A DNA stretch of 20,000 bases, from IMG/VR virus record IMGVR_UViG_3300033388_001337; one strand, given 5' to 3'. The position numbers and the translations under genes are program-made. Numbering within the stretch: the stretch's first letter is position 1; every line of letters begins with the position of its first letter. The stretch comes from an uncultured virus (IMG/VR IMGVR_UViG_3300033388_001337). Lineage: Duplodnaviria; Heunggongvirae; Uroviricota; Caudoviricetes; Crassvirales. Positions 1 to 14,995 of this stretch are shown piece after piece. The notes beneath the pieces were generated by a model that ran no database searches, was not told the DNA's origin, and worked only from the letters and a program-made list of their open reading frames with translations.

Positions 1-124
1 CTATAGTGTCGAGGATAACATCTCTGTCAGGAATATTTTCTTTTGTTAGGTTTGCTACAGGCAGAATCTCTGCATCCTGAAATTCACAATCCTGTAGCAT
101 TTTTACTAGTTCTTTTACTTTCAT
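1..124 (-). CDS. Hypothetical phage protein, 5' part only (runs off the window)
   Basis: ATG at 124, just after the MTase stop. Reads MKVKELVKMLQDCEFQDAEILPV... and stays open to the window edge. Confidence 0.6.
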   Translation of the reverse strand, partial: MKVKELVKMLQDCEFQDAEILPVANLTKENIPDRDVILDTI

Positions 125-130
125 ATAATG

Positions 131-802
131 TTATTTAAGTTCGTGTTCTATTTCTGCAGACACTAGAATTACTTCGCATAATTCTGATGGTATCTTGCTT
201 CTCTCGTGATTACCTTTCAGTCCCTGTGTCCCTGTTTGGCTTCCTCGTGGTGCTGGAGTATGACACGTGTCTCCGTTCTTACACATTGCACGTGGAGTCC
301 AGCCCATATCGTTAGTCCAAATATCTGTAGGCTTCATTCTTGAGTCGCCATATTGACAATAGGTAACTGTTTCTCTTCTATGTTCTAGTTCAGTCCAATG
401 AGGTGCTTTTCTCATTTTACCTCGTGGATTTTCTACGTACCATAAAAGGTTGGGATTCTTATCAAGATAATTAGAAATGATTTCTAATGTTTTCTCGAAG
501 ATTTTTAGCCCGATCATGTCAGGATCACGTGGTGTAAAATTCTCTCCTGAAACCCACTTTCTGCCTATACAGGCTACTGAAAAGTCAGTACAGGGTGGAG
601 ATGCCCAAAGGACATCAGGAATCCACAACTCATCTAATGTTCCTACATTGATTTCATTCATACGATAGTCCCAATCCATAATATCGCCCACCCAATTTGT
701 GTTAGGGTACGCTACATTATCAACAGAGAATACCTCGTGGCCACGCTGTTCTGCAACTTTGCCTATACTACTTGAGCCACTAAATAGTTCAAGTATTTTC
801 AT
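131..802 (-). CDS. C5-cytosine DNA methyltransferase (short phage type)
   Basis: Motif I variant LELFSGSSS, catalytic motif IV WASPPCT, motif VI YVENP, and the YCQYG..MKPTDIWTN block typical of small phage C5-MTases. Confidence 0.88.
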   Translation of the reverse strand: MKILELFSGSSSIGKVAEQRGHEVFSVDNVAYPNTNWVGDIMDWDYRMNEINVGTLDELWIPDVLWASPPCTDFSVACIGRKWVSGENFTPRDPDMIGLKIFEKTLEIISNYLDKNPNLLWYVENPRGKMRKAPHWTELEHRRETVTYCQYGDSRMKPTDIWTNDMGWTPRAMCKNGDTCHTPAPRGSQTGTQGLKGNHERSKIPSELCEVILVSAEIEHELK

Positions 803-815
803 AATTGTTTGTTTT

Positions 816-902
816 GATTAAGACACAAGAGTAATAATCTACCAACGTGGTTTGTCATTTGCACCTCTCGTGTTTCGGATATTTAATCCTCATCAGTTAA
901 TC
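816..902 (-). ncRNA. Hammerhead ribozyme, type I (HHR1)
   Basis: Minus strand reads GAUUAA CUGAUGA GGAU-UAAAU-AUCC GAAA CACGAGAG-(33 nt)-CUCUUGUG UC^UUAAUC. Complete core and three stems. Predicted cut between 822 and 821, 19 nt before the MTase ATG. Confidence 0.93.
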
Positions 903-905
903 TGT

Positions 906-1142
906 TTAAAAAATCTCATCAAGATATTTATATGACTCAGTTATTTTTTCTAACGCATATATGTATTTAAATATATGGTCACTTTTATTGAGTTCATCTT
1001 CATACTCTTGCGAAAACACTTCTTCTTCGACACTATGTCTTTCATTATAATCAGTGAATTCAGGCTCATAAATGTATTCCAAAACTTTGTTACATAAATG
1101 AATCATTTGTTCCTCTTGAAAAGGAGTCAATTTGTTTTTCAT
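906..1142 (-). CDS. Hypothetical acidic phage protein (78 aa)
   Basis: ORF with A-rich leader ending AATTATG; co-oriented in the operon. Confidence 0.7.
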   Translation of the reverse strand: MKNKLTPFQEEQMIHLCNKVLEYIYEPEFTDYNERHSVEEEVFSQEYEDELNKSDHIFKYIYALEKITESYKYLDEIF

Positions 1143-1162
1143 AATTGTTATTTGTTATAGGT

Positions 1163-1212
1163 TTCTACCACCAAAACCCCAACACGTTTTACTGTGTTGA
1201 GGTAAGGCAGAA
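1163..1212 (-). other. Intergenic stem-loop with internal loop (structured RNA, terminator or processing site)
   Basis: UUCUGCC-UUA-CCUCAACAC-AGUAAAAC-GUGUUGGGG-UUUUGGU-GGUAGAA forms two helices (7 and 9 bp, with G-U pairs on the minus strand). Confidence 0.6.
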
Positions 1213-1226
1213 TCACACACTACAAA

Positions 1227-1472
1227 TCAGGATGCGTTCAATGGCGATTCTATATTGTATTCGCCATCCATAATAATCGCATCAATAATCTCTTCTTCAT
1301 AATTGTACAGGACATCAGTGACATCATCTCCATTAAGAATCATTTTGTCTATTGTAATCTCCTCAATGGGTGGGGAATCATAACTTCCTGATTCAACGTA
1401 GTATTCGTAATGTACTTCTACTACATTATTTTCGGACAGTTCCCAATCGAATTGTAAGTTATAACTTTTCAT
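1227..1472 (-). CDS. Hypothetical highly acidic phage protein (81 aa)
   Basis: ORF rich in D/E/Y with AATTATG start context. Confidence 0.72.
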   Translation of the reverse strand: MKSYNLQFDWELSENNVVEVHYEYYVESGSYDSPPIEEITIDKMILNGDDVTDVLYNYEEEIIDAIIMDGEYNIESPLNAS

Positions 1473-1474
1473 AA

Positions 1475-1729
1475 TTATAATGTTGGTATTGTTCCGTAAC
1501 CTTTAATTGTAGTGAACAACGCACCACCATCATTACCCTCATCATCCATAGATGGATATAGCCAAAATGTCTCTCCGTGTTTGTTTTCCATTAACATACA
1601 TAAAGGAGATTTGTACCACATCATTTCATCTACTTCATCTTCTGACATATATTGTACTTTAACAATCTTACATCCGACAAGATGTTTCTTCGCTAAATCA
1701 GTCCAACGTGTTTCTGTGTTTGTTTTCAT
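1475..1729 (-). CDS. Hypothetical phage protein (84 aa)
   Basis: ORF with LVGCKIVKVQYM and SMDDEGNDGGALF motifs, which I recall from uncharacterised phage proteins. Preceded by the ACTATCAAATATG leader. Confidence 0.8.
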   Translation of the reverse strand: MKTNTETRWTDLAKKHLVGCKIVKVQYMSEDEVDEMMWYKSPLCMLMENKHGETFWLYPSMDDEGNDGGALFTTIKGYGTIPTL

Positions 1730-1752
1730 ATTTGATAGTATTTATATGGTTT

Positions 1753-1808
1753 GTAAATGACACCTACATAGGTAGGTGTTTCGGATATTTAATCCTCATC
1801 AGATTTAC
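1753..1808 (-). ncRNA. Hammerhead ribozyme, type I (HHR2)
   Basis: GUAAAU CUGAUGA GGAU-UAAAU-AUCC GAAA CACCUAC-CUAU-GUAGGUG UC^AUUUAC. Stem I sequence differs from HHR1 but still pairs. Predicted cut 1759/1758. Confidence 0.95.
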
Positions 1809-1944
1809 TTGCGTACTCCATTGCATTGCAATATACCCTGTAATAATTAGTACGAACATAGGATATGAAATCAGTGTAAAATTCCTCTTCGGACTCACGT
1901 GTATAACCCATATCTTTTTGTTTTATCAGTGGTTTGTTTTTCAT
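1789..1944 (-). CDS. Small hypothetical protein (51 aa), not in ORF track
   Basis: MKNKPLIKQKDMGYTRESEEEFYTDFISYVRTNYYRVYCNAMEYASKSDED*. ATGA overlap with the upstream stop; its stop lies in loop II of HHR2. Confidence 0.65.
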   Translation of the reverse strand: MKNKPLIKQKDMGYTRESEEEFYTDFISYVRTNYYRVYCNAMEYASKSDED

Positions 1945-2345
1945 TTCTTAAAGGTTTTAATAAATTCATCTACTGTATCATCAAATTTAATTTGATAATC
2001 GTAATCTCGCATTTGAATACGAATTTTGTTATCACTATTTACATAGACAAAATATGTATATTCTTCCCAAACATCTTTACAGTTTGGTGTATGAACATAA
2101 ATATTACCACGTGGATTCTGTTGTTTGAACTCGCATAAAGCTAAAGCTGTCAATTCTTCGATTCCGTTTGCGTATTGTGATTCAGTATTGTGGCTTACTC
2201 CGTTTGTCAACGTGTATTGTTGCAGAATCTCTGCAAGTTCTACTCCGTGTGATTCAGGATAGCCATCATACTGTCTATACATAGTTAATAATGTAGCAGA
2301 ACCTCTGCCACCATTTTCGAAATGTGTTAAACTTCTTGTTCCCAT
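1941..2345 (-). CDS. Hypothetical phage protein (134 aa)
   Basis: MGTRSLT...YRQYDGYPESHG...WEEYTYFV motif pattern, which I recall from uncharacterised phage proteins. Conserved leader. Confidence 0.82.
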   Translation of the reverse strand: MGTRSLTHFENGGRGSATLLTMYRQYDGYPESHGVELAEILQQYTLTNGVSHNTESQYANGIEELTALALCEFKQQNPRGNIYVHTPNCKDVWEEYTYFVYVNSDNKIRIQMRDYDYQIKFDDTVDEFIKTFKK

Positions 2346-2361
2346 ATTTGATAGTTTTTAT

Positions 2362-2419
2362 GATTAGGACACCACTTCATGAAGTGGTGTTTCGGATACT
2401 GAATCCTCATCAGCTAATC
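2362..2419 (-). ncRNA. Hammerhead ribozyme, type I (HHR3)
   Basis: GAUUAG CUGAUGA GGAU-UCAGU-AUCC GAAA CACCACUUC-AU-GAAGUGGUG UC^CUAAUC. Compensatory A-U to G-C change in stem I. Predicted cut 2368/2367. Confidence 0.95.
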
Positions 2420-2535
2420 TCAACATAGAATATCCACATCCCCACATAAAATATGAAGAATAAGAATAATAAAAACACTACGTTAATTATATATTCTACA
2501 GGATTTTCTTTGATGTCTTTTAATAGTTGTTTCAT
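2410..2535 (-). CDS. Small single-pass membrane protein (41 aa), not in ORF track
   Basis: MKQLLKDIKENPVEYIINVVFLLFLFFIFYVGMWIFYVEIS*. Hydrophobic helix; the stop TGA is the UGA of the HHR3 CUGAUGA core. Confidence 0.6.
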   Translation of the reverse strand: MKQLLKDIKENPVEYIINVVFLLFLFFIFYVGMWIFYVEIS

Positions 2536-2550
2536 AATGTGATTTTTAAA

Positions 2551-2904
2551 TTAATACCTCTTCCTAATAGTTTCTCTTTGGTCTTCAGTCAATACATTGT
2601 TCCAAACATACCCATAAGTTTTATCTAACTTTTGGTATTTTGATGCGTGTATGTCTAAATCTTTTTCCAATGTTTTTACCCTTTGTTCTAACTCTTCTTT
2701 GTCAAAAATGATATTAGCAATATACTCATCATTTTCAGCTAATTTTCTGTTTAGATTTTCAGTCAGAGCAGTCCATTGTAAGATTCCAAAAAGCATTTCT
2801 ATTTTGGAAGTTTTAAGTGCCTCATTTACCTCCTCTTCATTATGTTGAGGAAAATGTTTTAATAAGAGGCCTCTGTCGATTTTGCAACTAGTTTTGATTT
2901 TCAT
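2551..2904 (-). CDS. Hypothetical protein with coiled-coil segment (117 aa)
   Basis: ORF with heptad-like LEQRVKTLEKDL segment. Confidence 0.72.
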   Translation of the reverse strand: MKIKTSCKIDRGLLLKHFPQHNEEEVNEALKTSKIEMLFGILQWTALTENLNRKLAENDEYIANIIFDKEELEQRVKTLEKDLDIHASKYQKLDKTYGYVWNNVLTEDQRETIRKRY

Positions 2905-2908
2905 AATA

Positions 2909-3202
2909 TTAAATTTTATTAATTAAGTTAAGTGCTTTTTTAATTGTCTTTACAGTAAATTTTGCATTCTGGAAGTGAAAGTAATCCTCGCCAATATTAG
3001 CAAGAAACTCTAGATTCCATTTAACAACCTCTAAAGCATTTTTTGAATCTGTTCTAGTGTAACCCTTACTGCATTTAGGAACAGCCATATCTTTCATTGT
3101 GTTATGCATATTCTCTAAAATAGCAGATGGTTTTGCAGTGTGTCCGATTGTATTCTTTGATACTAAATCTTGACACATCTTAAAATACTCATTGTAATTC
3201 AT
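2909..3202 (-). CDS. Hypothetical phage protein (97 aa)
   Basis: ORF preceded by the AAAACTATCAAAATTATG leader. Confidence 0.72.
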   Translation of the reverse strand: MNYNEYFKMCQDLVSKNTIGHTAKPSAILENMHNTMKDMAVPKCSKGYTRTDSKNALEVVKWNLEFLANIGEDYFHFQNAKFTVKTIKKALNLINKI

Positions 3203-3217
3203 AATTTTGATAGTTTT

Positions 3218-3278
3218 GATTAAGACACCTCTAGATCATTTTGAGGTGTTTCGAATATTAAATTCTCATCAGTTAATC
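3218..3278 (-). ncRNA. Hammerhead ribozyme, type I (HHR4)
   Basis: GAUUAA CUGAUGA GAAU-UUAAU-AUUC GAAA CACCUC-(11 nt)-GAGGUG UC^UUAAUC. Compensatory G-C to A-U change in stem II. Predicted cut 3224/3223. Confidence 0.95.
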
Positions 3279-3662
3279 TTCATATTCTATGTTCCACGTA
3301 TCGCATAAATCTCTTTTAAGATATTCATCATCATCCCATCTGTCTGAAATCATTTCTAAAATGTCTTCATCAATGTAGATGCGATTATCTTCTTCAAAGT
3401 TATATGCGTAACTGTTTTGCATAAAAGCATCAATGACAGCTTCAACTAAATTGTCATCATAGTAATACACATCATCAAGTATATTGATTTGTCCTCCTCT
3501 TACATTGTCTGTAAAAACAAAGACATCATAAGAGTCAGCAGTTTCCTGTGAGTGAATCATATAATCTAGCCCACTGAAATCATCTGTAGTAATTTCTAAT
3601 GGAAGATACTCATCAACAAATTGTTTGAATGAGGTGTACTCTGATAAATTTAACTTTTTCAT
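3273..3662 (-). CDS. Hypothetical highly acidic protein (129 aa)
   Basis: ORF very rich in D/E and aromatic residues. Its stop codon is part of HHR4 stem I. Confidence 0.78.
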   Translation of the reverse strand: MKKLNLSEYTSFKQFVDEYLPLEITTDDFSGLDYMIHSQETADSYDVFVFTDNVRGGQINILDDVYYYDDNLVEAVIDAFMQNSYAYNFEEDNRIYIDEDILEMISDRWDDDEYLKRDLCDTWNIEYED

Positions 3663-3684
3663 AATTTGATAGTTTATTGTGATT

Positions 3685-3741
3685 ATTATAAGACACCTAA
3701 CTAGTAGGTGTTTCGGATTTTAAATCCTCATCAGTTATAAT
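3685..3741 (-). ncRNA. Hammerhead ribozyme, type I (HHR5)
   Basis: AUUAUAA CUGAUGA GGAU-UUAAA-AUCC GAAA CACCUA-CUAGU-UAGGUG UC^UUAUAAU. Predicted cut 3692/3691. Confidence 0.95.
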
Positions 3742-3743
3742 GG

Positions 3744-3944
3744 TTAAGCATTGTTAATCGTACCCTCATAAGAGGTTAGATTATTAGATTCCATCTCTAG
3801 TATTGTTAGCTTTGCAACCCTGATACACATTGAATATTCTGCTGGAGATATTGCTGTGTTATTGTCAAACATTTTATTAGCTACATTCATAGCTATTTTC
3901 ATATCGTTTTCAGGCTCAATACTAATAGTTTTTACTGTACTCAT
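3744..3944 (-). CDS. Hypothetical protein (66 aa)
   Basis: ORF exactly filling the interval between HHR6 and HHR5, with the conserved leader. Confidence 0.72.
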   Translation of the reverse strand: MSTVKTISIEPENDMKIAMNVANKMFDNNTAISPAEYSMCIRVAKLTILEMESNNLTSYEGTINNA

Positions 3945-3963
3945 AATTGATAGTTTTTATTGT

Positions 3964-4070
3964 GATTAATGACTATCACTTCTCGCACACATCCACCACT
4001 CTTTCAGGTGTTCGCAACGTATTTCGTGATAGTTTCGTAGGTGTTTAAACCTTTACTCATCAGATTAATC
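3964..4070 (-). ncRNA. Hammerhead ribozyme, type I, extended stems (HHR6)
   Basis: GAUUAAU CUGAUGA GUA(AA)GGU-UUAAAC-ACCUAC GAAA CUAUCAC-(46 nt)-GUGAUAG UC^AUUAAUC. Stems II and III differ in sequence from the other copies yet still pair. Predicted cut 3971/3970. Confidence 0.9.
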
Positions 4071-4138
4071 TTGATTAGATGAACACAACCTCGAACTCAT
4101 TCGAGATGTCTTCAAGAGCAATTTCATAGCTTTCCATA

Positions 4139-4435
4139 TTAGTAAATGTATTTGTGATTAATAATGTATTTATTTAGTTTTTCTTTATTAGCAGAATCTA
4201 GCATCATATAGAACTCATAGAAACAAGCAGTTCCAAATCTAAATGGCAGTTCTCCGTGATATTGTTTTTTGTATTTGGATACCAAGCCTTCAAACTTCCC
4301 TATCAAATGATATAAAAGTGTTGGCTCATCTCCCCATACATTTTCAAGAAAAGATGCCTCATAATTGTTAGCATAAACATTAAATTTTACAATGCAGTTA
4401 CTAGCATTTGCAGTAGCTTCATAATTAGTTTTCAT
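4139..4435 (-). CDS. Hypothetical protein (98 aa), first gene of leftward operon
   Basis: ORF track; ATTATTATG start context. Confidence 0.72.
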   Translation of the reverse strand: MKTNYEATANASNCIVKFNVYANNYEASFLENVWGDEPTLLYHLIGKFEGLVSKYKKQYHGELPFRFGTACFYEFYMMLDSANKEKLNKYIINHKYIY

Positions 4436-4448
4436 AATAATAAATTTG

Positions 4449-4466
4449 TGTGATTAATGACTATCA
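4449..4466 (-). repeat. 18-nt exact repeat of the 3' (substrate) half of HHR6
   Basis: tgtgattaatgactatca occurs at 3961-3978 and 4449-4466. No adjacent CUGAUGA/GAAA core at the second copy. Confidence 0.85.
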
Positions 4467-4572
4467 AAACAAGTATTACTAGCACTGCATTCATCTTGAG
4501 ATTATAGTGGTATGCGAGGTAGCCCACTTGTAGTTCATAACGCTACGTAATTTTTATGCAGTAATACTCGGT

Positions 4573-4584
4573 ATGTCAAAGAAC
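4573..4584 (-). promoter_or_regulatory. boxA-like antitermination element
   Basis: GTTCTTTGACAT directly downstream of the -7 promoter box; resembles rrn boxA (E. coli TGCTCTTTAACA). Confidence 0.55.
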
Positions 4585-4589
4585 AGGTG

Positions 4590-4597
4590 CAAATATA
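4590..4597 (-). promoter_or_regulatory. Bacteroidota-type -7 promoter box for leftward operon
   Basis: TATATTTG (followed by CAC) matches TAnnTTTG; lies upstream of the first leftward ORF. Confidence 0.65.
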
Positions 4598-5013
4598 GTA
4601 TATGTATAGCATAATTCTATAATAACTTACTGACAATTTGTCTACTTTCTTCTGCATATTTGTCACACATTTAACGTTTTCTTTATCAACAAGTTACGCA
4701 ACACTATTGCAATATATATTGTTTAGCAATATTAGGTATCGTACAGGCACTATCCCTTTGCTATTGATGTGCAAAGGTACTTTATAAATTAAAGTTCGTT
4801 AAACGTAAGCTATGAGAGTGTACGAGGGACAGGTATTTTGGGGTATGGCTAAAATAAAAAACCCAAAAAAATGCAGAAAAAAATTTCAGAATCTAGATTC
4901 GAGCTGAAAAAAATATGACTTTCGATTGTAGGGGGTGCAACGTGAGACGACATATAACCCTCAACCTCTAAATATCTAATATTTTTTTATTACCTTTACA
5001 AAAAAGAAAAACT

Positions 5014-5193
5014 ATGGATGGACTAATTATAAAAAACGGAAGACTAATCAATGAGAGACGACCAGGCGAATCAGGTATCGCTATGGCAGCACGATTAAAG
5101 CGTGCAGTAAAAAACGATCGTAAAATAAATCAGATAGCAGAAGCTATTGAACTTGCAGAAAATAAAAAGAACTTTAGACAACTAGAATTTTAA
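5014..5193 (+). CDS. Small hypothetical protein (59 aa), not in ORF track
   Basis: MDGLIIKNGRLINERRPGESGIAMAARLKRAVKNDRKINQIAEAIELAENKKNFRQLEF*. A-rich leader, upstream TACCTTTA promoter-like box, downstream terminator. Confidence 0.7.
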   Translation: MDGLIIKNGRLINERRPGESGIAMAARLKRAVKNDRKINQIAEAIELAENKKNFRQLEF

Positions 5194-5223
5194 GTTTCCC
5201 ATTTGTGTGTTTTGATTAGTAGT

Positions 5224-5259
5224 GAGAAGAGTATCTATTCAGGTACTCTTTTCTTTTTT
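5224..5259 (+). terminator. Rho-independent terminator
   Basis: GAGAAGAGTATCT-ATTC-AGGTACTCTTTTC hairpin followed by TTTTTT. Confidence 0.7.
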
Positions 5260-5443
5260 AACATACTATGTTGATTTTATGTTAATTTTAATTTTACTTA
5301 AGTTATTGAAAATAATATATTTAAATACTATTTATGTTAATATGTTAAAAATTATATATAAAAAAATAATTTAAAAAAAATATATAGCAAGCTCTTTTAC
5401 TAAGACTGATAAAATATTTATAAAAAATCAACATATCAACATA
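5258..5443. repeat. AT-rich tract with seven TATGTTRA octamers (possible origin or operator array)
   Basis: Forward copies at 5267, 5278, 5333 and 5341; inverted copies at 5258, 5428 and 5436. Confidence 0.6.
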
Positions 5444-5463
5444 TTAGAATTCAATAAAAGTTT

Positions 5464-5471
5464 TATATTTG
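5464..5471 (+). promoter_or_regulatory. -7 promoter box upstream of groEL
   Basis: TATATTTG, 23 nt before the ATG. Confidence 0.6.
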
Positions 5472-5494
5472 TATAAAATCAAATACATTTAAAT

Positions 5495-7105
5495 ATGCAA
5501 ACAGACTCGGGATACATTCCTAAAAACCTAGACTTCGGTCAAGACGGTAGACAAAAACTTATAAACGGAATCACTGCAATCTCTAAAGCAGTTAAGAGTA
5601 CACTAGGCCCACGAGGCAGAACAGTACTAATAGAATCACCACAACATACTAACGGAATAACGGTAACTAAAGACGGGGTTACAGTCGCAAGGTCAGTTGC
5701 TTTACTTGATCCAGTTGAAAACTTAGCAATACAAATGATGCAGGAAGCTGCGAGTCGTACTGCTACTTCGGCTGGTGATGGTACAACTACCGCTATTGTT
5801 TTAACTGAAGCTTTAGTAAAAGCTGGTCAAGAACACATAACACCTGAAAATAATATAACTGAAGTTTTAAAACATATTAATAGAATATGTAACGAAACTA
5901 TTCTTAAGTTGAAAATGAAAACCAAGAAAGTAACTAAATCTAAATTAGATGCAGTTGCTTCAATCTCTGCAAACAATGATAAAGAGTTAGGAAAGATTAT
6001 AGCTGATGCATATAAGAAAGTAGGTGCAGACGGAATAGTAACTGTAGAAAAATCTATGACAGCCGAAACATATGCTGAGGTTACTAACGGTATTAAAGTA
6101 GATAGAGGTTATACTTCACCACTCTTTATTAATAATCAAAAGAAAGATGAGTGTATATTAGAAGGAGTTAGGATTTTAGTTTGTGATCAGGAGATTACTA
6201 ATGTATTGCAAATCGAGAATATATTAAAACCAATAATTAATAAAGGCGATAAACTTTTAATTATAGCTGAGTGTAATTCAAATGTTGTAAACACACTTGC
6301 TGCCAATGTAGTTCGTAATGGTTTAAAGTTCTGTAATATCATGCCTCCATCATTTGGATATAAAACCCACGAGCTGATGCAGGATATTGCTTTATCAGTT
6401 GGTGCAAAATACTTTTCTGAAAAGACAGGTGATGATTTATCACTGATGCAGTTTTCAGATTTAGGTTATGCAGATAAAATTATTGTAGGAAAAGAAAGTA
6501 CTGTCTTAATTAAAAACCAAGATATGACTGAAGAGATTAAAGAAAGAATCAGTCAACTTAAAGTACAACAAGAAAACACTACACATTTAGGAGATAGAAA
6601 GTTTATCAATGAACGTATTGCTAGTTTAGCAGGTTCTATTGGTTGTATTTATGTAGGAGGTAACAGTGATGTAGAGCAAAAAGAAAAATTTGACCGAGTC
6701 GATGACTCGGTGTGCGCTGTGCGCAGTGCCTTACAAGAAGGCATATTACCAGGCGGAGGAATAGCTTTACGTAAATTAACTCCCCTTGTATATGCAACAG
6801 GAGATAAAGATAAGGCTACAGCTGAACTTATAATGGCTACAGCTCTTAGCGCACCATTTAATCATATACTTACTAATGCAGGAATCAATATAGAATCTAT
6901 AGCTGATAAACTTGTAAGCTCAGACTTTGCTTTTGGTTATGATGTAAAGAATGAAAAGTTTGGTGATATGTTCCAGTTAGGAGTTATTGATCCATTAAAG
7001 GTTACTAAGAATGCTTTGATTAATGCAGTATCTGTAGCAACAACTATATTAAGTACTAACGCTATTATTACACATAAAAGATTAAATGAAGAAAAGGAAG
7101 CTTAA
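5495..7105 (+). CDS. groEL: Phage-encoded chaperonin GroEL (Cpn60)
   Basis: VKSTLGPRGR, TKDGVTVA, AGDGTTTA and GVIDPLKVTKNALINAVSVA motifs. 536 aa, no GGM tail. Confidence 0.97.
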   Translation: MQTDSGYIPKNLDFGQDGRQKLINGITAISKAVKSTLGPRGRTVLIESPQHTNGITVTKDGVTVARSVALLDPVENLAIQMMQEAASRTATSAGDGTTTAIVLTEALVKAGQEHITPENNITEVLKHINRICNETILKLKMKTKKVTKSKLDAVASISANNDKELGKIIADAYKKVGADGIVTVEKSMTAETYAEVTNGIKVDRGYTSPLFINNQKKDECILEGVRILVCDQEITNVLQIENILKPIINKGDKLLIIAECNSNVVNTLAANVVRNGLKFCNIMPPSFGYKTHELMQDIALSVGAKYFSEKTGDDLSLMQFSDLGYADKIIVGKESTVLIKNQDMTEEIKERISQLKVQQENTTHLGDRKFINERIASLAGSIGCIYVGGNSDVEQKEKFDRVDDSVCAVRSALQEGILPGGGIALRKLTPLVYATGDKDKATAELIMATALSAPFNHILTNAGINIESIADKLVSSDFAFGYDVKNEKFGDMFQLGVIDPLKVTKNALINAVSVATTILSTNAIITHKRLNEEKEA

Positions 7106-7239: not shown

Positions 7240-7443
7240 ATGCACCCAATTAACAATCAAATCTTCGATTCATATAGATTAGAAGTAAAAAAAATTCATG
7301 ACGCTATTCGTTTATTAGCAACACAAGGATATACTGTGATAGACTTAGAAGGTCAAGTTATTACAAAATGGAATATTGGAAAAGACAATTACCCTAATAT
7401 AACTTACAACAGAACCCCAAAACAATTAGAATATAACGACTAA
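7240..7443 (+). CDS. Hypothetical protein (67 aa)
   Basis: ORF with TAATG coupling to groES. Confidence 0.7.
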   Translation: MHPINNQIFDSYRLEVKKIHDAIRLLATQGYTVIDLEGQVITKWNIGKDNYPNITYNRTPKQLEYND

Positions 7444-7700
7444 TGCAACCAATAGGAAAATATATAGCAGTAAAACCTATAGAAGAAGAAATAAAAACTG
7501 ATTCAGGATTATTGTTATCTTCAAAAGAAGCGCAAGACTTTAGATATAAAAAGGGATCAGTAATAAAACCTGGCAGTGATGTGACGGTTATAAAAGCTGA
7601 TGATGTTATATACTACGACAAAAATGCTGGACACTCTATGCTTTTAGATAATGAGTCGATGACTATTATTCAAGAGAGAGATGTGGTTGTAGTCTTATAA
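7443..7700 (+). CDS. groES: Co-chaperonin GroES (Cpn10)
   Basis: MQPIGKYIAV, mobile loop KTDSGLLL, C-terminal IIQERDVVVVL; near groEL. Confidence 0.92.
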   Translation: MQPIGKYIAVKPIEEEIKTDSGLLLSSKEAQDFRYKKGSVIKPGSDVTVIKADDVIYYDKNAGHSMLLDNESMTIIQERDVVVVL

Positions 7701-12047: not shown

Positions 12048-13328
12048 ATGAATAGAAAACAGAAGACAGAGAAGTTCGCATTAAACGCTATGCTATATAT
12101 TGTAATATTATTTTTATTAGCATGTTTTACATTTAGTGCGCAGGCTCAAGTAATACAAGAGCCTAGTAAAAAAGAAATTAAAAAACTTAAAAAAGGATTT
12201 AGTAAAGAAAATATTTTTACCAAAACCTATAAAGACTTTTTAAAATACGGTACACTTTATATAGCGGGAGACATAAGTAATCCTTACCAAAAACAATCTA
12301 TTGATTATGTTGTAAGAACTAATCCTAATGGAAACTTATATAGTGTGCCTATTGTAGAAGACGCAACTGAATATCATGAGTTTGATTATAGATACGGTTT
12401 TGGAATCAGACGTATTGCACGATTTGATTATGAGAATAAAGAGAAAGCATATTATGATGGAACAGAAAAAAACGTAGCACTGTCTTCTCCAACAGCTGCA
12501 TTTAATGGATTTGAATATTTATTCCATTGGGAGAAAGAAAGGGAGAGAGGTGAGGTGTTTACTAATCACCGTTACTTTCTTAGGCATACAGGTAAAAATC
12601 ACATTGTTAAACTCGAGTCTAGAGAAGAAGGTAATGTAGGTTTTAAATATCAAAGCGCTGAAGTAAGAGGTCGTTTACCTATAGGAAAGAAGTTTAGTAT
12701 TTCAGCTGGAGTTATTGCCCGAACACACGAGCAAGCATTTGGATATAATCCTGTTGAAATATGGTTAAATGAAACCGATGATGAAGGGTTTGCATTAAAC
12801 CCGTGGTGGACTTTAGGGTTTGAATATGGTTATGACGATATCTATTATACACAAGAAGATCAGTTTGGTAATGAAGTAACAGACTGGTACTGGATTGACC
12901 AAGATGGAACAATCGTAGCCCATACAGATTTAGAGTTTCGTGAGACAGTATTTGCTGACTTGATGAACAGGTATAATAGAGAGCAGTGGGATTTGCTAGA
13001 TGATTTTGCAGAAGTTGCTCCTATAGTTGGAGCTGATTGGTATAGCTATACTGATAAAGCTTGGATTCACGCTTATGCTAATTACATATTACCGTATCAT
13101 AAATATTTTAAAGGAGACGAAGACTTCAGTTATTTAAATAGAAACAACTGGGGGTTAGGAGGATTAAGACAAGATTCAGAATTAGAACAGTGGGATGACT
13201 ATCAGTTCGGTTTAATATTAGGCTGGAACATTACTTCAAAATTAGGTATATTTGTAGAGGGAGAATACACGAAGTTTTGGGACACAGAAATATTTAAATC
13301 AACTGTAGGACTGAATATTGAATTATGA
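12048..13328 (+). CDS. Signal-peptide protein, probable outer-membrane beta-barrel (426 aa)
   Basis: Signal peptide ending AQA|Q, aromatic-rich, with amphipathic C-terminal strands (QFGLILGWNI, LGIFVEGEY, STVGLNIEL). Confidence 0.6.
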   Translation: MNRKQKTEKFALNAMLYIVILFLLACFTFSAQAQVIQEPSKKEIKKLKKGFSKENIFTKTYKDFLKYGTLYIAGDISNPYQKQSIDYVVRTNPNGNLYSVPIVEDATEYHEFDYRYGFGIRRIARFDYENKEKAYYDGTEKNVALSSPTAAFNGFEYLFHWEKERERGEVFTNHRYFLRHTGKNHIVKLESREEGNVGFKYQSAEVRGRLPIGKKFSISAGVIARTHEQAFGYNPVEIWLNETDDEGFALNPWWTLGFEYGYDDIYYTQEDQFGNEVTDWYWIDQDGTIVAHTDLEFRETVFADLMNRYNREQWDLLDDFAEVAPIVGADWYSYTDKAWIHAYANYILPYHKYFKGDEDFSYLNRNNWGLGGLRQDSELEQWDDYQFGLILGWNITSKLGIFVEGEYTKFWDTEIFKSTVGLNIEL

Positions 13329-13783
13329 AAATAAGCGATCATATAACTTACGCTGAAGCTATACATTCAAACACTGCGAAGCGAAAAAGAATTGACAACA
13401 CGCCTAACCCTACACAAGTAGAGGCTATGAAGGAGACAGCGCTAAAAGTATTTGAACCTTTAAGAGCTTGGGTTGGTGGCCCTATAAAAGTAAATTCATT
13501 CTTCAGGTCACCTGTTTTGAATGAGGCAATTGGCGGGGTAGCTTCCTCACAACATTGCAAAGGTCAAGCGATTGATATTGATGATGTATATGGATATAAA
13601 ACAAATGCAGAAATGTTTATGTATATCCGAGAGAACTTAGATTTTGACCAATTAATTTGGGAGTTTGGAACTGACATGAATCCTAACTGGCTACATGTTT
13701 CATACGTTTCAAAAGAAGATAACAGAGGTAGATGCCTGAAAGCCTACAAAGAAGATGGCAAAACAAAATATAAAGTTATATAA
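13325..13783 (+). CDS. Peptidase M15 (L-Ala-D-Glu/D-Ala-D-Ala type) endolysin
   Basis: NSFFRS..LN.AIGG...SQHCKGQAIDI and W.HVS zinc-binding motifs. Confidence 0.88.
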   Translation: MKISDHITYAEAIHSNTAKRKRIDNTPNPTQVEAMKETALKVFEPLRAWVGGPIKVNSFFRSPVLNEAIGGVASSQHCKGQAIDIDDVYGYKTNAEMFMYIRENLDFDQLIWEFGTDMNPNWLHVSYVSKEDNRGRCLKAYKEDGKTKYKVI

Positions 13784-14311: not shown

Positions 14312-14589
14312 TGGCGATAAGAAGAACAACAGGAAAAGGAGGAAATTACAGACCAACTAAGTCAGGCGCAGGCATGACTAAAAAAGGTGTGGCTGCATAT
14401 AGAAGAGCTAATCCAGGATCAAAACTTAAGACAGCTGTAACTGGTAAAGTAAAACCTGGAAGTAAAAGAGCTAAAAGAAGAAAGTCATATTGCGCAAGAA
14501 GTTTAGGTCAGTTAAAAAGAAGTAGTGCTAAAACAAGAAATAACCCTAATTCTAGAATCAGACAAGCTAGAAGAAGATGGAAATGTTAA
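14311..14589 (+). CDS. Basic phage protein (92 aa)
   Basis: GMTKKGVAAYRRANPGSKLKTAVTG...RRKSYCARS...ARRRWKC, a pattern I recall from marine phages. Confidence 0.75.
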   Translation: MAIRRTTGKGGNYRPTKSGAGMTKKGVAAYRRANPGSKLKTAVTGKVKPGSKRAKRRKSYCARSLGQLKRSSAKTRNNPNSRIRQARRRWKC

Positions 14590-14590
14590 T

Positions 14591-14995
14591 ATGAAAGATA
14601 TATTATTAAAAATATTTGGAGGTTCAGCTGGAGAAGTCACTAATAGGATTTCAAATGTTGTAGATAAATTCGTTAGAACAAAAGACGAAAAAGCAGCTTT
14701 TGAAAAAGAAATGACTCAAATATTAATTGAAGCTGAAGCTGCTATGCAAAAAAATGTAACTGAGCGATGGAAAGCTGATATGGCTAGTGATAACAAACTA
14801 TCTAAATCAGTAAGACCTTTAGTTTTAATCTTTGTTATAGTATGCACTATGTTGCTAATTTTTATTGACTCAGGATTTATTAACTTTGCAGTTGAAGATA
14901 AATGGGCAGACTTACTTCAGATGCTTCTCATTACAATTGTGGCTGCATACTTCGGAGGAAGGTCTTACGAAAAAGGTAAATCGATTAAAAAGTAA
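14591..14995 (+). CDS. Holin (GTA 3TM-holin-like)
   Basis: RWKADMASDNKLSKSVRPLVL, two TM helices, and AYFGGRSYEK; near the endolysin. Confidence 0.8.
   Translation: MKDILLKIFGGSAGEVTNRISNVVDKFVRTKDEKAAFEKEMTQILIEAEAAMQKNVTERWKADMASDNKLSKSVRPLVLIFVIVCTMLLIFIDSGFINFAVEDKWADLLQMLLITIVAAYFGGRSYEKGKSIKK

What the first reader, a model, noticed from the sequence alone, without database searches (positions are those of the whole stretch)
816..4070. Array of six hammerhead ribozymes punctuating a phage early operon
Seen in sequence: six intergenic elements on the coding (minus) strand each carry the complete hammerhead core CUGAUGA / GAAA / GUC with stems I-III. Stems covary between copies. Stem I reads GAUUAA, GUAAAU, GAUUAG, AUUAUAA or GAUUAAU, each with its exact complement. 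Stem II reads GGAU/AUCC, GAAU/AUUC or GUA..UAC. This indicates selection on RNA structure rather than a plain DNA repeat. Predicted cuts lie 19, 29, 22, 21, 29 and 26 nt upstream of the next ATG. Established: hammerheads self-cleave after NUH to give 5'-OH and 2',3'-cyclic phosphate ends, and are known from phage-like environmental DNA. Inference: the phage uses serial self-cleavage to cut one polycistronic transcript into 1-3-gene mRNAs with standardised 5'-OH leaders, a protein-free analogue of RNase III processing of T7 early mRNA. This could tune mRNA stability and translation.
Basis: partly seen in the sequence, partly recalled or inferred. Interest (0 to 1): 0.93.

Follow-up and report, generated by a model that had tools for sequence, protein, structure and literature searches.

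The report
Hammerhead ribozyme array in phage operon
Six self-cutting hammerhead RNA motifs really do sit between the small early genes of this uncultured phage, probably chopping one long message into short ones, but this layout has been known in phages since 2011 and is common.

Summary
Six complete type I hammerhead motifs lie on the minus strand at 816-902, 1753-1808, 2362-2419, 3218-3278, 3685-3741 and 3964-4070. Chance gives about 0.025 such motifs per window. Stems covary. Related phage contigs carry orthologous arrays, and one complete 64.7-kb relative has nine copies. Rfam 15 misses them at its thresholds.

The window is a phage with GroEL/GroES, endolysin and holin, and has no Shine-Dalgarno leaders. 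The array fills the gaps between small genes of unknown function at the head of the minus-strand arm.

Serial self-cleavage into 1-3-gene mRNAs is the best reading. It is the hypothesis already published for clustered phage hammerheads (Perreault 2011, PMC3088659), and it is untested here because no RNA data cover the locus. This scan has noted such arrays before on other DNA, in 218 notes.

Local details:
- Upstream stop codons lie inside the ribozyme in three of six copies.
- Five of six leaders share ACUAUCAA.
- Whole leader-gene-ribozyme units are gained or lost between relatives.

Verdict: real, a new member of a known kind, of modest interest.

The parts
3964..4070 (-). HH6. Type I hammerhead, stem I GAUUAAU/AUUAAUC. 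Stem II is 3 bp, an AA bulge, 3 bp and a hexaloop. Stem III carries a long insert. Cut after C3971.
   Evidence: Descriptor hit. MFE fold gives the three-way junction. Orthologues in G001 (74 nt) and G002 (100 nt) have different stem III inserts. R1 scores it only 8.5 bits.
3685..3741 (-). HH5. Type I hammerhead, stem I AUUAUAA/UUAUAAU. Cut after C3692.
   Evidence: R1 68.5 bits. RF03152 25.8 bits, sub-threshold. Absent together with the 66-aa gene in G001 and in a contig of DNA run X1.
3218..3278 (-). HH4. Type I hammerhead, stem I GAUUAA/UUAAUC, stem II GAAU/AUUC. Cut after C3224. The TAA stop of the upstream 129-aa ORF is part of stem I.
   Evidence: R1 70.5 bits. Stop position.
2362..2419 (-). 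HH3. Type I hammerhead, stem I GAUUAG/CUAAUC. Cut after C2368. The upstream 41-aa ORF stops at the first UGA of the CUGAUGA core.
   Evidence: R1 70.2 bits. Stop position. The G002 orthologue has a fully re-paired distal stem III.
1753..1808 (-). HH2. Type I hammerhead, stem I GUAAAU/AUUUAC. Cut after C1759. The upstream 51-aa ORF reads through stem I and the core and stops at UAA in loop II.
   Evidence: R1 68.3 bits. Stop position.
816..902 (-). HH1. Type I hammerhead, stem I GAUUAA/UUAAUC, with a long branched stem III. Cut after C822. Lies in front of the DNA methyltransferase gene.
   Evidence: R1 46.4 bits. MFE fold. Methyltransferase match phrog_757, 1.7e-30.
803..821 (-). Predicted 5'-OH leader after HH1 (19 nt). 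Lacks ACUAUCAA.
1730..1758 (-). Predicted leader after HH2 (29 nt), with ACUAUCAA 2 nt before the ATG.
2346..2367 (-). Predicted leader after HH3 (22 nt), with ACUAUCAA.
3203..3223 (-). Predicted leader after HH4 (21 nt), with ACUAUCAA.
3663..3691 (-). Predicted leader after HH5 (29 nt), with ACUAUCAA.
3945..3970 (-). Predicted leader after HH6 (26 nt), with ACUAUCAA.
131..4435 (-). Run of 12 minus-strand ORFs of 41-223 aa, plus a 20-codon ORF that I read by eye at 4075-4137. The ribozymes cut this run into units of 1-3 genes. Only the last ORF has a family match (131-802, DNA methyltransferase).
   Evidence: ORF list. 0 Pfam hits for 12 of 12 ORFs. 11 of 12 have no PHROG hit. NCBIfam gave one negligible hit among the 12 ORFs plus window:5014-5193 (+).
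4449..4465 (-). 17-nt copy of the HH6 3' end (stem III 3' strand, GUC, stem I 3' strand) in front of the first gene, with no CUGAUGA or GAAA upstream. Read as a decayed hammerhead or a retained leader.
   Evidence: Sequence. Conserved in G001 and G002.
1143..1226 (-). Conserved structured gap without a hammerhead: a 9-10-bp G+C-rich hairpin followed by UUUU.
   Evidence: Nearly invariant in 4 relatives. MFE -28.1 kcal/mol, z -3.38. No Rfam match.
4436..5494 (.). Divergent control region between the minus-strand arm and the plus-strand GroEL arm. TAnnTTTG words lie at 4590-4597 (-), 4772-4779 (-) and 5464-5471 (+).
   Evidence: The word is not enriched overall (37 found, 29.8 expected), so any promoter assignment is inference.

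Best explanation
The six elements are functional type I hammerhead ribozymes. They are transcribed as part of the minus-strand message that starts in the divergent control region (4436-5494) and runs through the small accessory genes at the head of the phage's replication arm.

Each ribozyme folds as soon as it is made and cuts after C17. Because the ribozymes are type I, almost the whole ribozyme stays on the upstream piece: stem I 5' strand, core, stem II and stem III. This gives the upstream piece a structured 3' end with a 2',3'-cyclic phosphate, downstream of its stop codon. The downstream piece starts with only the 6-7 nt of the stem I 3' strand plus an A/U-rich leader that lacks a Shine-Dalgarno sequence. 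Its 5'-OH lies 19-29 nt before the ATG.

Stem I is weak, so the products separate and the cut is effectively irreversible. The result is 1-3-gene mRNAs whose stability and translation can differ from gene to gene.

What is shown: motif completeness, non-chance occurrence, covariation, orientation, position, and conservation in relatives. What is inferred: cleavage in vivo, one precursor transcript, the consequences for stability and translation, and early timing.
For: - Core and helices are complete in 6 of 6 copies, all in the gene orientation.
- Chance expectation is 0.025 per window.
- On 21 short copies (4 from the window, 17 from related and unrelated phage contigs), 14 of 18 pairs show changes on both sides and 99.4% of cells are paired. 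The covariation score is 0.650, against 0.146 shuffled and at most 0.119 for slid partners.
- Orthologues in G001 and G002 keep the 5' half and re-pair a divergent distal stem III.
- MFE folds give the three-way junction for 4 of 6 copies alone and for HH2 with flanks.
- The elements occur only in the small-gene head of the minus arm. There are none on the plus strand of the window (filters off). All 8 R1 hits in complete G002, and the HH6 orthologue found by descriptor, lie within about 5 kb.
- Each element runs from the upstream stop codon to a short leader. Cut-to-ATG is 13-32 nt in 32 of 33 descriptor rows of the 9 sources examined; one row had no ATG within 45 nt.
- Stem I duplex energies are only -1.6 to -3.7 kcal/mol. 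The predicted unpaired probability of positions -20 to +12 rises from 0.57-0.72 in the precursor to 0.68-0.77 in the product.
- Published precedent: three-ribozyme prophage arrays cleave in vitro, and one cleaves in vivo after cloning (PMC3088659, passages read).
Against: - No RNA evidence. No RNA run holds the stretch, and three metatranscriptome runs laid on it gave only ~35-nt spurious pieces. These blanks say nothing either way.
- Rfam's hammerhead models do not reach threshold.
- No tertiary stem I / loop II contact could be identified, and stem I is short and A/U-rich. HH5 alone and HH2 alone do not form stem I in the MFE fold. Fast cleavage at physiological Mg2+ is therefore not assured.
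- In 3 of 6 copies the upstream ORF ends inside the ribozyme, so terminating ribosomes must transiently unfold it.
- A conserved terminator-like hairpin at 1143-1226 may break the transcript independently.
- The rows used for covariation were selected by a descriptor that demands pairing, which inflates the percentage paired.
- The predicted gain in leader accessibility after the cut is small.
Confidence: 0.7

Rival explanations
1. A portable punctuation cassette. The unit that evolves is [leader - accessory gene - hammerhead]. The repeated hammerhead 3' end and leader act as homology for recombination, so accessory genes are gained, lost and swapped as whole units. RNA cutting makes each newcomer independent of its neighbours. 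This adds to the processing reading rather than excluding it.
For: - G001 lacks exactly window 3686-3946, which is the 66-aa gene plus HH5. The junction lies in the repeated AAUCACAAUAAA..CUAUCAA leader.
- A contig of DNA run X1 shows the same skip (3662 to 3954, with 10 leader letters between). Another replaces gene 1 (4138 to 4444) with 425 other letters.
- G002 has 9 units against 6 here, with extra gene-plus-ribozyme modules.
- The ribozyme 5' half carries stop codons in at least 2 frames in 30 of 30 distinct copies and in all 3 frames in 9 of 30, against 2% of random 26-nt windows.
- A 17-nt hammerhead 3' remnant precedes gene 1.
Against: - Only a few indels were seen, among close relatives.
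- Repeats of any kind promote such deletions.
- The three-frame stop is present in a minority of copies.
- No direction of transfer was shown.
Confidence: 0.3
2. Conditional cleavage. Cutting is modulated by ribosomes terminating inside the ribozyme, by ionic conditions, or by the large variable stem III inserts. The array would then be a regulatory device rather than a constitutive processor.
For: - Stop codons lie in stem I (HH4), in the core (HH3) and in loop II (HH2).
- HH1 and HH6 have long stem III inserts.
- Stem I is weak.
- Perreault 2011 raises regulated cleavage for phage hammerheads.
Against: - The stem III inserts are hypervariable between close relatives, which argues against a conserved sensor.
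- HH1 and HH5 have stops 6 and 5 nt before stem I, so overlap is not a rule.
- No ligand-binding motif was found.
Confidence: 0.12
3. Excised segments are ligated. The 5'-OH and 2',3'-cyclic-phosphate ends are joined by a host RtcB-type ligase or by the ribozyme itself, giving circular or spliced RNAs.
For: The ends produced are the substrates of RtcB (established knowledge). Perreault 2011 considered this possibility.
Against: - Perreault 2011 looked for such products and found none.
- Stem I duplexes of -1.6 to -3.7 kcal/mol disfavour religation.
- No RNA ligase or kinase was found among the 30 G002 proteins scanned, out of 81 ORFs called.
Confidence: 0.04
4. Plain DNA repeats or decayed relics with no RNA function.
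For: - One decayed copy exists at 4449-4465.
- Rfam thresholds are not met.
Against: - The 11 core positions are invariant, while the stems change by compensated pairs.
- Strand and position relative to the genes are strict.
Confidence: 0.02

Closest known systems
Clustered hammerhead ribozymes flanking genes in prophages (Perreault et al. 2011, PLoS Comput Biol, PMC3088659; passages read)
   Same: Several complete hammerheads in one orientation flank single genes or short gene blocks of phage origin. [quoted passage not shown] An anti-restriction-type gene lies next to the array in both cases (ardA there, a DNA methyltransferase here).
   Different: - The arrays tested there had three ribozymes. 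I recall, from no call, that they were largely type II. Here there are six type I copies, and nine in a relative.
- The type I topology leaves the ribozyme on the upstream fragment and a nearly bare leader on the downstream gene.
- The leaders lack a Shine-Dalgarno sequence and share ACUAUCAA.
- Nothing here has been tested at the bench.
RAGATH-1 hammerhead (Rfam RF03152)
   Same: It is the best Rfam match. It is a type I hammerhead with the same core, a GAAAC-led stem III and a GUC site.
   Different: The scores are 25.8 and 25.1 bits against a gathering score of 56.3. The model's upstream hairpin is not matched convincingly, since that region is coding sequence here.
RNase III processing of phage T7 early mRNA (recalled textbook knowledge, not from a call)
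   Same: A polycistronic early phage transcript is cut at intercistronic structured sites into smaller mRNAs. The retained hairpins stabilise the 3' ends.
   Different: That process is catalysed by a protein, the host RNase III, and gives 5'-phosphate and 3'-OH ends. Here the RNA cuts itself and gives 5'-OH and 2',3'-cyclic phosphate. The two work alike but are not the same family.
Type I hammerheads in intergenic and 5' UTRs of fungal RNA viruses (NAR 2026, PMC13725137; passages read)
   Same: These are type I hammerheads with a long helix III that fill an intergenic UTR and cut a few nucleotides upstream of the next ORF (7 nt in PtFV1). They are linked there to translation of the downstream ORF. 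Some have a long helix II with a bulged adenosine, as HH6 has.
   Different: The hosts are eukaryotic, the genomes are RNA, and the role is cap-independent translation. Here the setting is a DNA phage of a bacterium.

Membership tests
Hammerhead ribozyme | Core C3 U4 G5 A6 N7 G8 A9 (CUGANGA) | tested here: met
   CUGAUGA in 6 of 6 copies.
Hammerhead ribozyme | G12 A13 A14, then the A15.1-U16.1 pair closing stem III | tested here: met
   GAAA followed by a helix closed by A-U in 6 of 6. AU in 21 of 21 rows of A1.
Hammerhead ribozyme | Cleavage-site nucleotide H17 (not G) after U16.1 | tested here: met
   GUC in 6 of 6.
Hammerhead ribozyme | Three helices around the core, with standard pairs directly adjacent to the core (1.1-2.1, 10.1-11.1, 15.1-16.1) | tested here: met
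   Stem I has 6-7 bp, stem II 3-5 contiguous bp and stem III 7-10 bp in 6 of 6. G10.1-C11.1 in 21 of 21 rows.
Hammerhead ribozyme | Helices supported by compensatory change | tested here: met
   14 of 18 pairs show changes on both sides. The covariation score is 0.650, with 0 of 500 shuffles as high. Caveat: the rows were chosen by a pairing descriptor.
Hammerhead ribozyme | Tertiary contact between stem I and stem II or loop II, needed for fast cleavage at low Mg2+ | tested here: inconclusive
   Loop II keeps an invariant U and A (U-N-A-R-U/A) in 21 of 21 rows, which suggests a contact. No partner was identified. The 4-bp extensions of stem I that I looked for by eye are not consistent between copies.
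Hammerhead ribozyme | Self-cleavage giving 5'-OH and 2',3'-cyclic phosphate | not testable with these tools
   No RNA data cover the locus.
Hammerhead ribozyme, type I topology | Stem I open, stems II and III closed by loops | tested here: met
   The order is stem I 5' strand, core, stem II hairpin, GAAA, stem III hairpin, C17, stem I 3' strand, in 6 of 6.
Rfam hammerhead families (RF00163, RF00008, RF02276, RF02275, RF02277, RF03152) | Score at or above the family's gathering threshold | tested here: not met
   0 hits at gathering thresholds. The only hits are to RF03152 at 25.8 and 25.1 bits against 56.3. None were found in G002's array at E up to 1. The accessions other than RF03152 are recalled. 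This is a gap in the catalogue's models, not a failed defining feature of the ribozyme.
Clustered phage hammerheads (Perreault 2011) | Several hammerheads close together, in the same orientation as the genes, flanking single genes or short gene blocks in phage DNA | tested here: met
   Six copies in 3.3 kb separate units of 1-3 ORFs. The phage context comes from GroEL/GroES, endolysin and holin. Relatives carry 5 and 9 copies.

The most novel reading that the evidence does not exclude
The hammerhead and its leader form one portable 'stop, cut, restart' cassette.
- The 5' half terminates translation of whatever lies upstream, with stops in stem I, in the core UGA-UGA and in loop II.
- The ribozyme severs the message.
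- The bare ACUAUCAA leader restarts translation in a host that does not use Shine-Dalgarno sequences.

Accessory genes then travel between phages as [leader - gene - ribozyme] units, by recombination in the repeated ribozyme and leader sequence. Termination inside the ribozyme would couple upstream translation to the timing of the cut.
Probability: 0.3. Interest if true: 0.55.

Novelty: new member of a known kind. Interest (0 to 1): 0.3.

Why it matters
The biological role of genomic hammerheads in phages is still called undefined in the 2019 review I read in passages (PMC6765202). A compact six-copy type I array offers a clean construct for asking whether self-cleavage changes mRNA stability or translation. 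It has clear stop-codon overlaps, a shared leader, and natural variants that lack single units. It also shows that Rfam 15 does not recognise this common marine and freshwater phage subfamily, so such arrays are under-annotated. It does not change the known picture.

Tried and rejected
- **Rfam.** Nothing was found at gathering thresholds. E-value mode gave only sub-threshold RF03152 hits and junk. Nothing was found in G002, L014 or L022.
- **Named phages.** Megablast of the whole window found no match. The closest named phage by GroEL is MW202828.1 at 56.6% identity. It has a similar two-arm layout but no hammerhead by descriptor or by R1; the best R1 hit was 13.4 bits.
- **Own assembly.** It is not held.
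- **RNA evidence.** No RNA holder is listed. Laying three metatranscriptome runs gave no cover of the array.
- **Gene function.** Pfam, PHROGs and NCBIfam gave nothing for the small genes apart from the methyltransferase.
- **RNA repair genes.** I looked for RNA ligase or kinase genes in 30 of the 81 ORFs called on G002 and found none. The other 51 ORFs were not scanned.
- **Sigma-70 promoter and terminator scan.** It was not above shuffles.
- **Bacteroidota-type TAnnTTTG word.** It is not enriched, with 37 found against 29.8 expected, so no transcription start can be assigned.
- **ACTATCAA with one mismatch.** It is not enriched, with 32 found against 33 expected. Only the exact word is concentrated in the leaders.
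- **Three-frame stop idea.** It holds for only 9 of 30 distinct copies.
- **Gap at 1143-1226 as a variant hammerhead.** I considered this and rejected it. CUGAUUU replaces the core and there is no stem III.
- **Trans-cleavage of the 17-nt remnant at 4449-4465 by HH6.** I rejected this because HH6's stem III is a closed hairpin.
- **Host from the genome-contig scan.** The matches are spread over many phyla, with 6 of 16 in Bacteroidota, so the scan is not diagnostic.

Full report
**Observation.** The minus strand of 816-4070 carries six elements with the full hammerhead consensus. My descriptor demanded CUGANGA, a stem II hairpin, GAAA, a stem III hairpin closed by A15.1-U16.1, a non-G residue at position 17, and at least 4 bp of stem I. 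It returned exactly six hits in the 20-kb window, all on the minus strand: 816-902, 1753-1808, 2362-2419, 3218-3278, 3685-3741 and 3964-4070. Mononucleotide shuffles gave 0.025 hits per window. The simpler pattern CTGATGA-N(4-30)-GAAAC has 6 matches against 0.06 expected, with 0 of 200 shuffles reaching 6. All six are type I, meaning stem I is open. Unconstrained folding gives the three-way junction for four copies alone and for HH2 with flanks. In HH5 only stems II and III form, because stem I is A/U-rich.

**The Rfam check fails, but for a cataloguing reason.** No family reaches its gathering score. In E-value mode only RAGATH-1-hammerhead RF03152 appears, at 25.8 and 25.1 bits against a threshold of 56.3. 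The nine-copy array of a relative gives no hammerhead hit at E up to 1. I built a covariance model (R1) from 21 short copies, 4 from the window and 17 from other phage contigs. It scores five window copies at 46-70 bits. HH6 has a bulged 20-nt stem II and a long stem III and scores only 8.5 bits. Nothing convincing appears on the plus strand.

**Covariation.** On the 21-row alignment, 14 of 18 pairs change on both sides. 99.4% of cells are paired, against 72.8% in shuffles. The covariation score is 0.650, against 0.146 in shuffles (0 of 500 as high) and at most 0.119 when partners are slid. The rows were picked by a descriptor that requires pairing, so the percentage paired is partly built in. 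The many pair types, and the invariant core beside variable stems, are still what a selected RNA structure gives.

**Context.** The window is phage DNA with 34% G+C. The plus strand carries GroEL (5495-7105), GroES (7443-7700), an M15 endolysin (13325-13783) and a holin (14525-14995). The minus strand carries a DNA methyltransferase (131-802). The own assembly is not held. Three relatives are informative:
- Contig G006 is 99.86% identical over window 1-4252.
- G001 is 94-97% identical.
- G002 is a complete 64,683-bp relative of about 80-90% identity. It shows the genome plan: a long plus-strand arm, and a minus-strand arm that starts at the divergent control region. The minus arm runs first through about 5 kb of small unknown genes with the ribozymes. 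It then runs through replication genes: a BT4734-like primase, an SNF2 helicase, VRR-NUC and a PDDEXK nuclease.

'Early operon' is thus a reasonable inference, not a result. Leaders lack Shine-Dalgarno sequences at all 37 starts that I listed, and GroEL's nearest cultured relatives are Flavobacterium, Vibrio and Cellulophaga phages at 38% identity. A Bacteroidota-type host is plausible but unproven.

**Relatives.** G001 has five orthologous copies. G002 has nine, all in the same 5-kb stretch. Other phage contigs have 2-4 copies with their own leader motifs. Three metagenome-bin contigs have 5-7 R1 hits in under 4 kb. The closest named phage, MW202828.1, has none. Between orthologues the 5' half is kept, while the distal stem III is re-paired or carries different inserts.

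**Anatomy that bears on mechanism.**
- The ribozyme fills the gap between stop codon and leader. In HH4 the stop is the UAA of stem I. In HH3 it is the first UGA of CUGAUGA. In HH2 the ORF reads into loop II. In HH1 and HH5 the stops lie 6 and 5 nt before stem I.
- Type I topology leaves the stop codon and nearly the whole ribozyme on the upstream product, and only 6-7 nt of stem I plus the leader on the downstream product.
- Stem I duplexes are worth only -1.6 to -3.7 kcal/mol, so the products should part. Predicted accessibility of positions -20 to +12 rises modestly, from 0.57-0.72 to 0.68-0.77.
- Five of six leaders carry ACUAUCAA 2-4 nt before the ATG. These are all five exact minus-strand matches in the window.
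- Unit-level variation occurs. G001 and a contig of DNA run X1 lack exactly the 66-aa gene plus HH5. X1 also replaces gene 1 with other sequence. G002 has extra gene-plus-ribozyme units.

**Best explanation.** The elements are self-cleaving hammerheads that cut the minus-strand message into 1-3-gene mRNAs. The upstream products end in a structured ribozyme with a cyclic phosphate. The downstream products begin with a short, bare 5'-OH leader. My confidence is 0.7. That they are hammerhead motifs is near certain, that they cleave in vivo is likely, and the consequences for stability and translation are inferred.

**Rivals.** The rivals are a portable cassette role (additive to processing), conditional cleavage coupled to upstream translation, ligation or circularisation of the excised pieces, and inert repeats.

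**Evidence against the processing reading, or missing.**
- There is no RNA evidence.
- No tertiary contact was identified, although loop II keeps an invariant U and A.
- Stem I is weak.
- A conserved terminator-like hairpin lies inside the gene run.

**What is known.** I read passages of Perreault et al. 2011 (PMC3088659). They state that multiple hammerheads often flank individual genes or short gene blocks in prophages. [quoted passage not shown] They also report that three-ribozyme arrays cleaved in vitro and that one cleaved in vivo after cloning. I read passages of a 2019 review (PMC6765202), which says additional work is needed to define the purpose of these ribozymes. Searches of the held library turned up no later functional study of phage arrays. 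Subscription journals are not covered. This scan's own notebook holds 218 notes on such arrays in at least 181 genomes.

**Verdict.** The finding is real and cleanly built. It is a new member of a known kind, not a new kind.

Noticed in passing
window 4449-4465 (-): A 17-nt exact copy of the 3' end of HH6 (3961-3977) sits 14 nt before the first gene's ATG. It comprises the stem III 3' strand, GUC and the stem I 3' strand. There is no CUGAUGA or GAAA upstream. It is identical in G001 and G002. It looks like a decayed hammerhead whose leader part is retained.
   Followed up: partly
window 1143-1226 (-): An 84-nt gap without a hammerhead holds a 9-10-bp G+C-rich hairpin followed by UUUU. It is nearly invariant in four relatives, although the flanking genes differ by 9-18%. 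The fold z-score is -3.38 and there is no Rfam match. The upstream ORF stops at the UGA of a CUGAUUU word that resembles a broken core.
   Followed up: partly
L014 4865-4961 (-) and L022 249-347 (-): The same ~45-nt insert sits in loop III of two non-orthologous hammerheads in two related phages: the HH2 orthologue in L014 and the HH5 orthologue in L022. It may be a small mobile or converted insert.
   Followed up: no
window 5495-7105 (+) and 7443-7700 (+): The phage encodes its own GroEL and GroES pair. Matches are PF00118 at 3.6e-61, phrog_5725 at 1.1e-138 and phrog_3188 at 5.3e-14.
   Followed up: partly
window 4075-4137 (-): A 20-codon ORF, found by eye, lies between gene 1 and HH6. It starts 1 nt after gene 1's stop codon.
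   Followed up: no
window 4468-4567 (-): The 5' UTR of gene 1 can form a 10-bp long-range helix, GAGUAUUACU with AGUAAUACUU. One compensated pair is seen in G001 and one mismatch in G002. G001 also has a 21-nt deletion inside the enclosed loop.
   Followed up: partly
window 1883-1931 (-): These 49 nt inside the 51-aa ORF upstream of HH2 are absent in G001, where the corresponding ORF is 36 aa. A contig of DNA run X1 also skips 1810-1939. The small ORF that reads into HH2 is therefore poorly conserved.
   Followed up: partly
L033, L036, L040 (genome contigs): Short contigs binned with Aliivibrio and Gammaproteobacteria metagenome bins carry 5-7 R1 hammerhead hits within 2.7-5 kb. These arrays are denser than the one here, and the contigs are probably phage DNA.
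   Followed up: no
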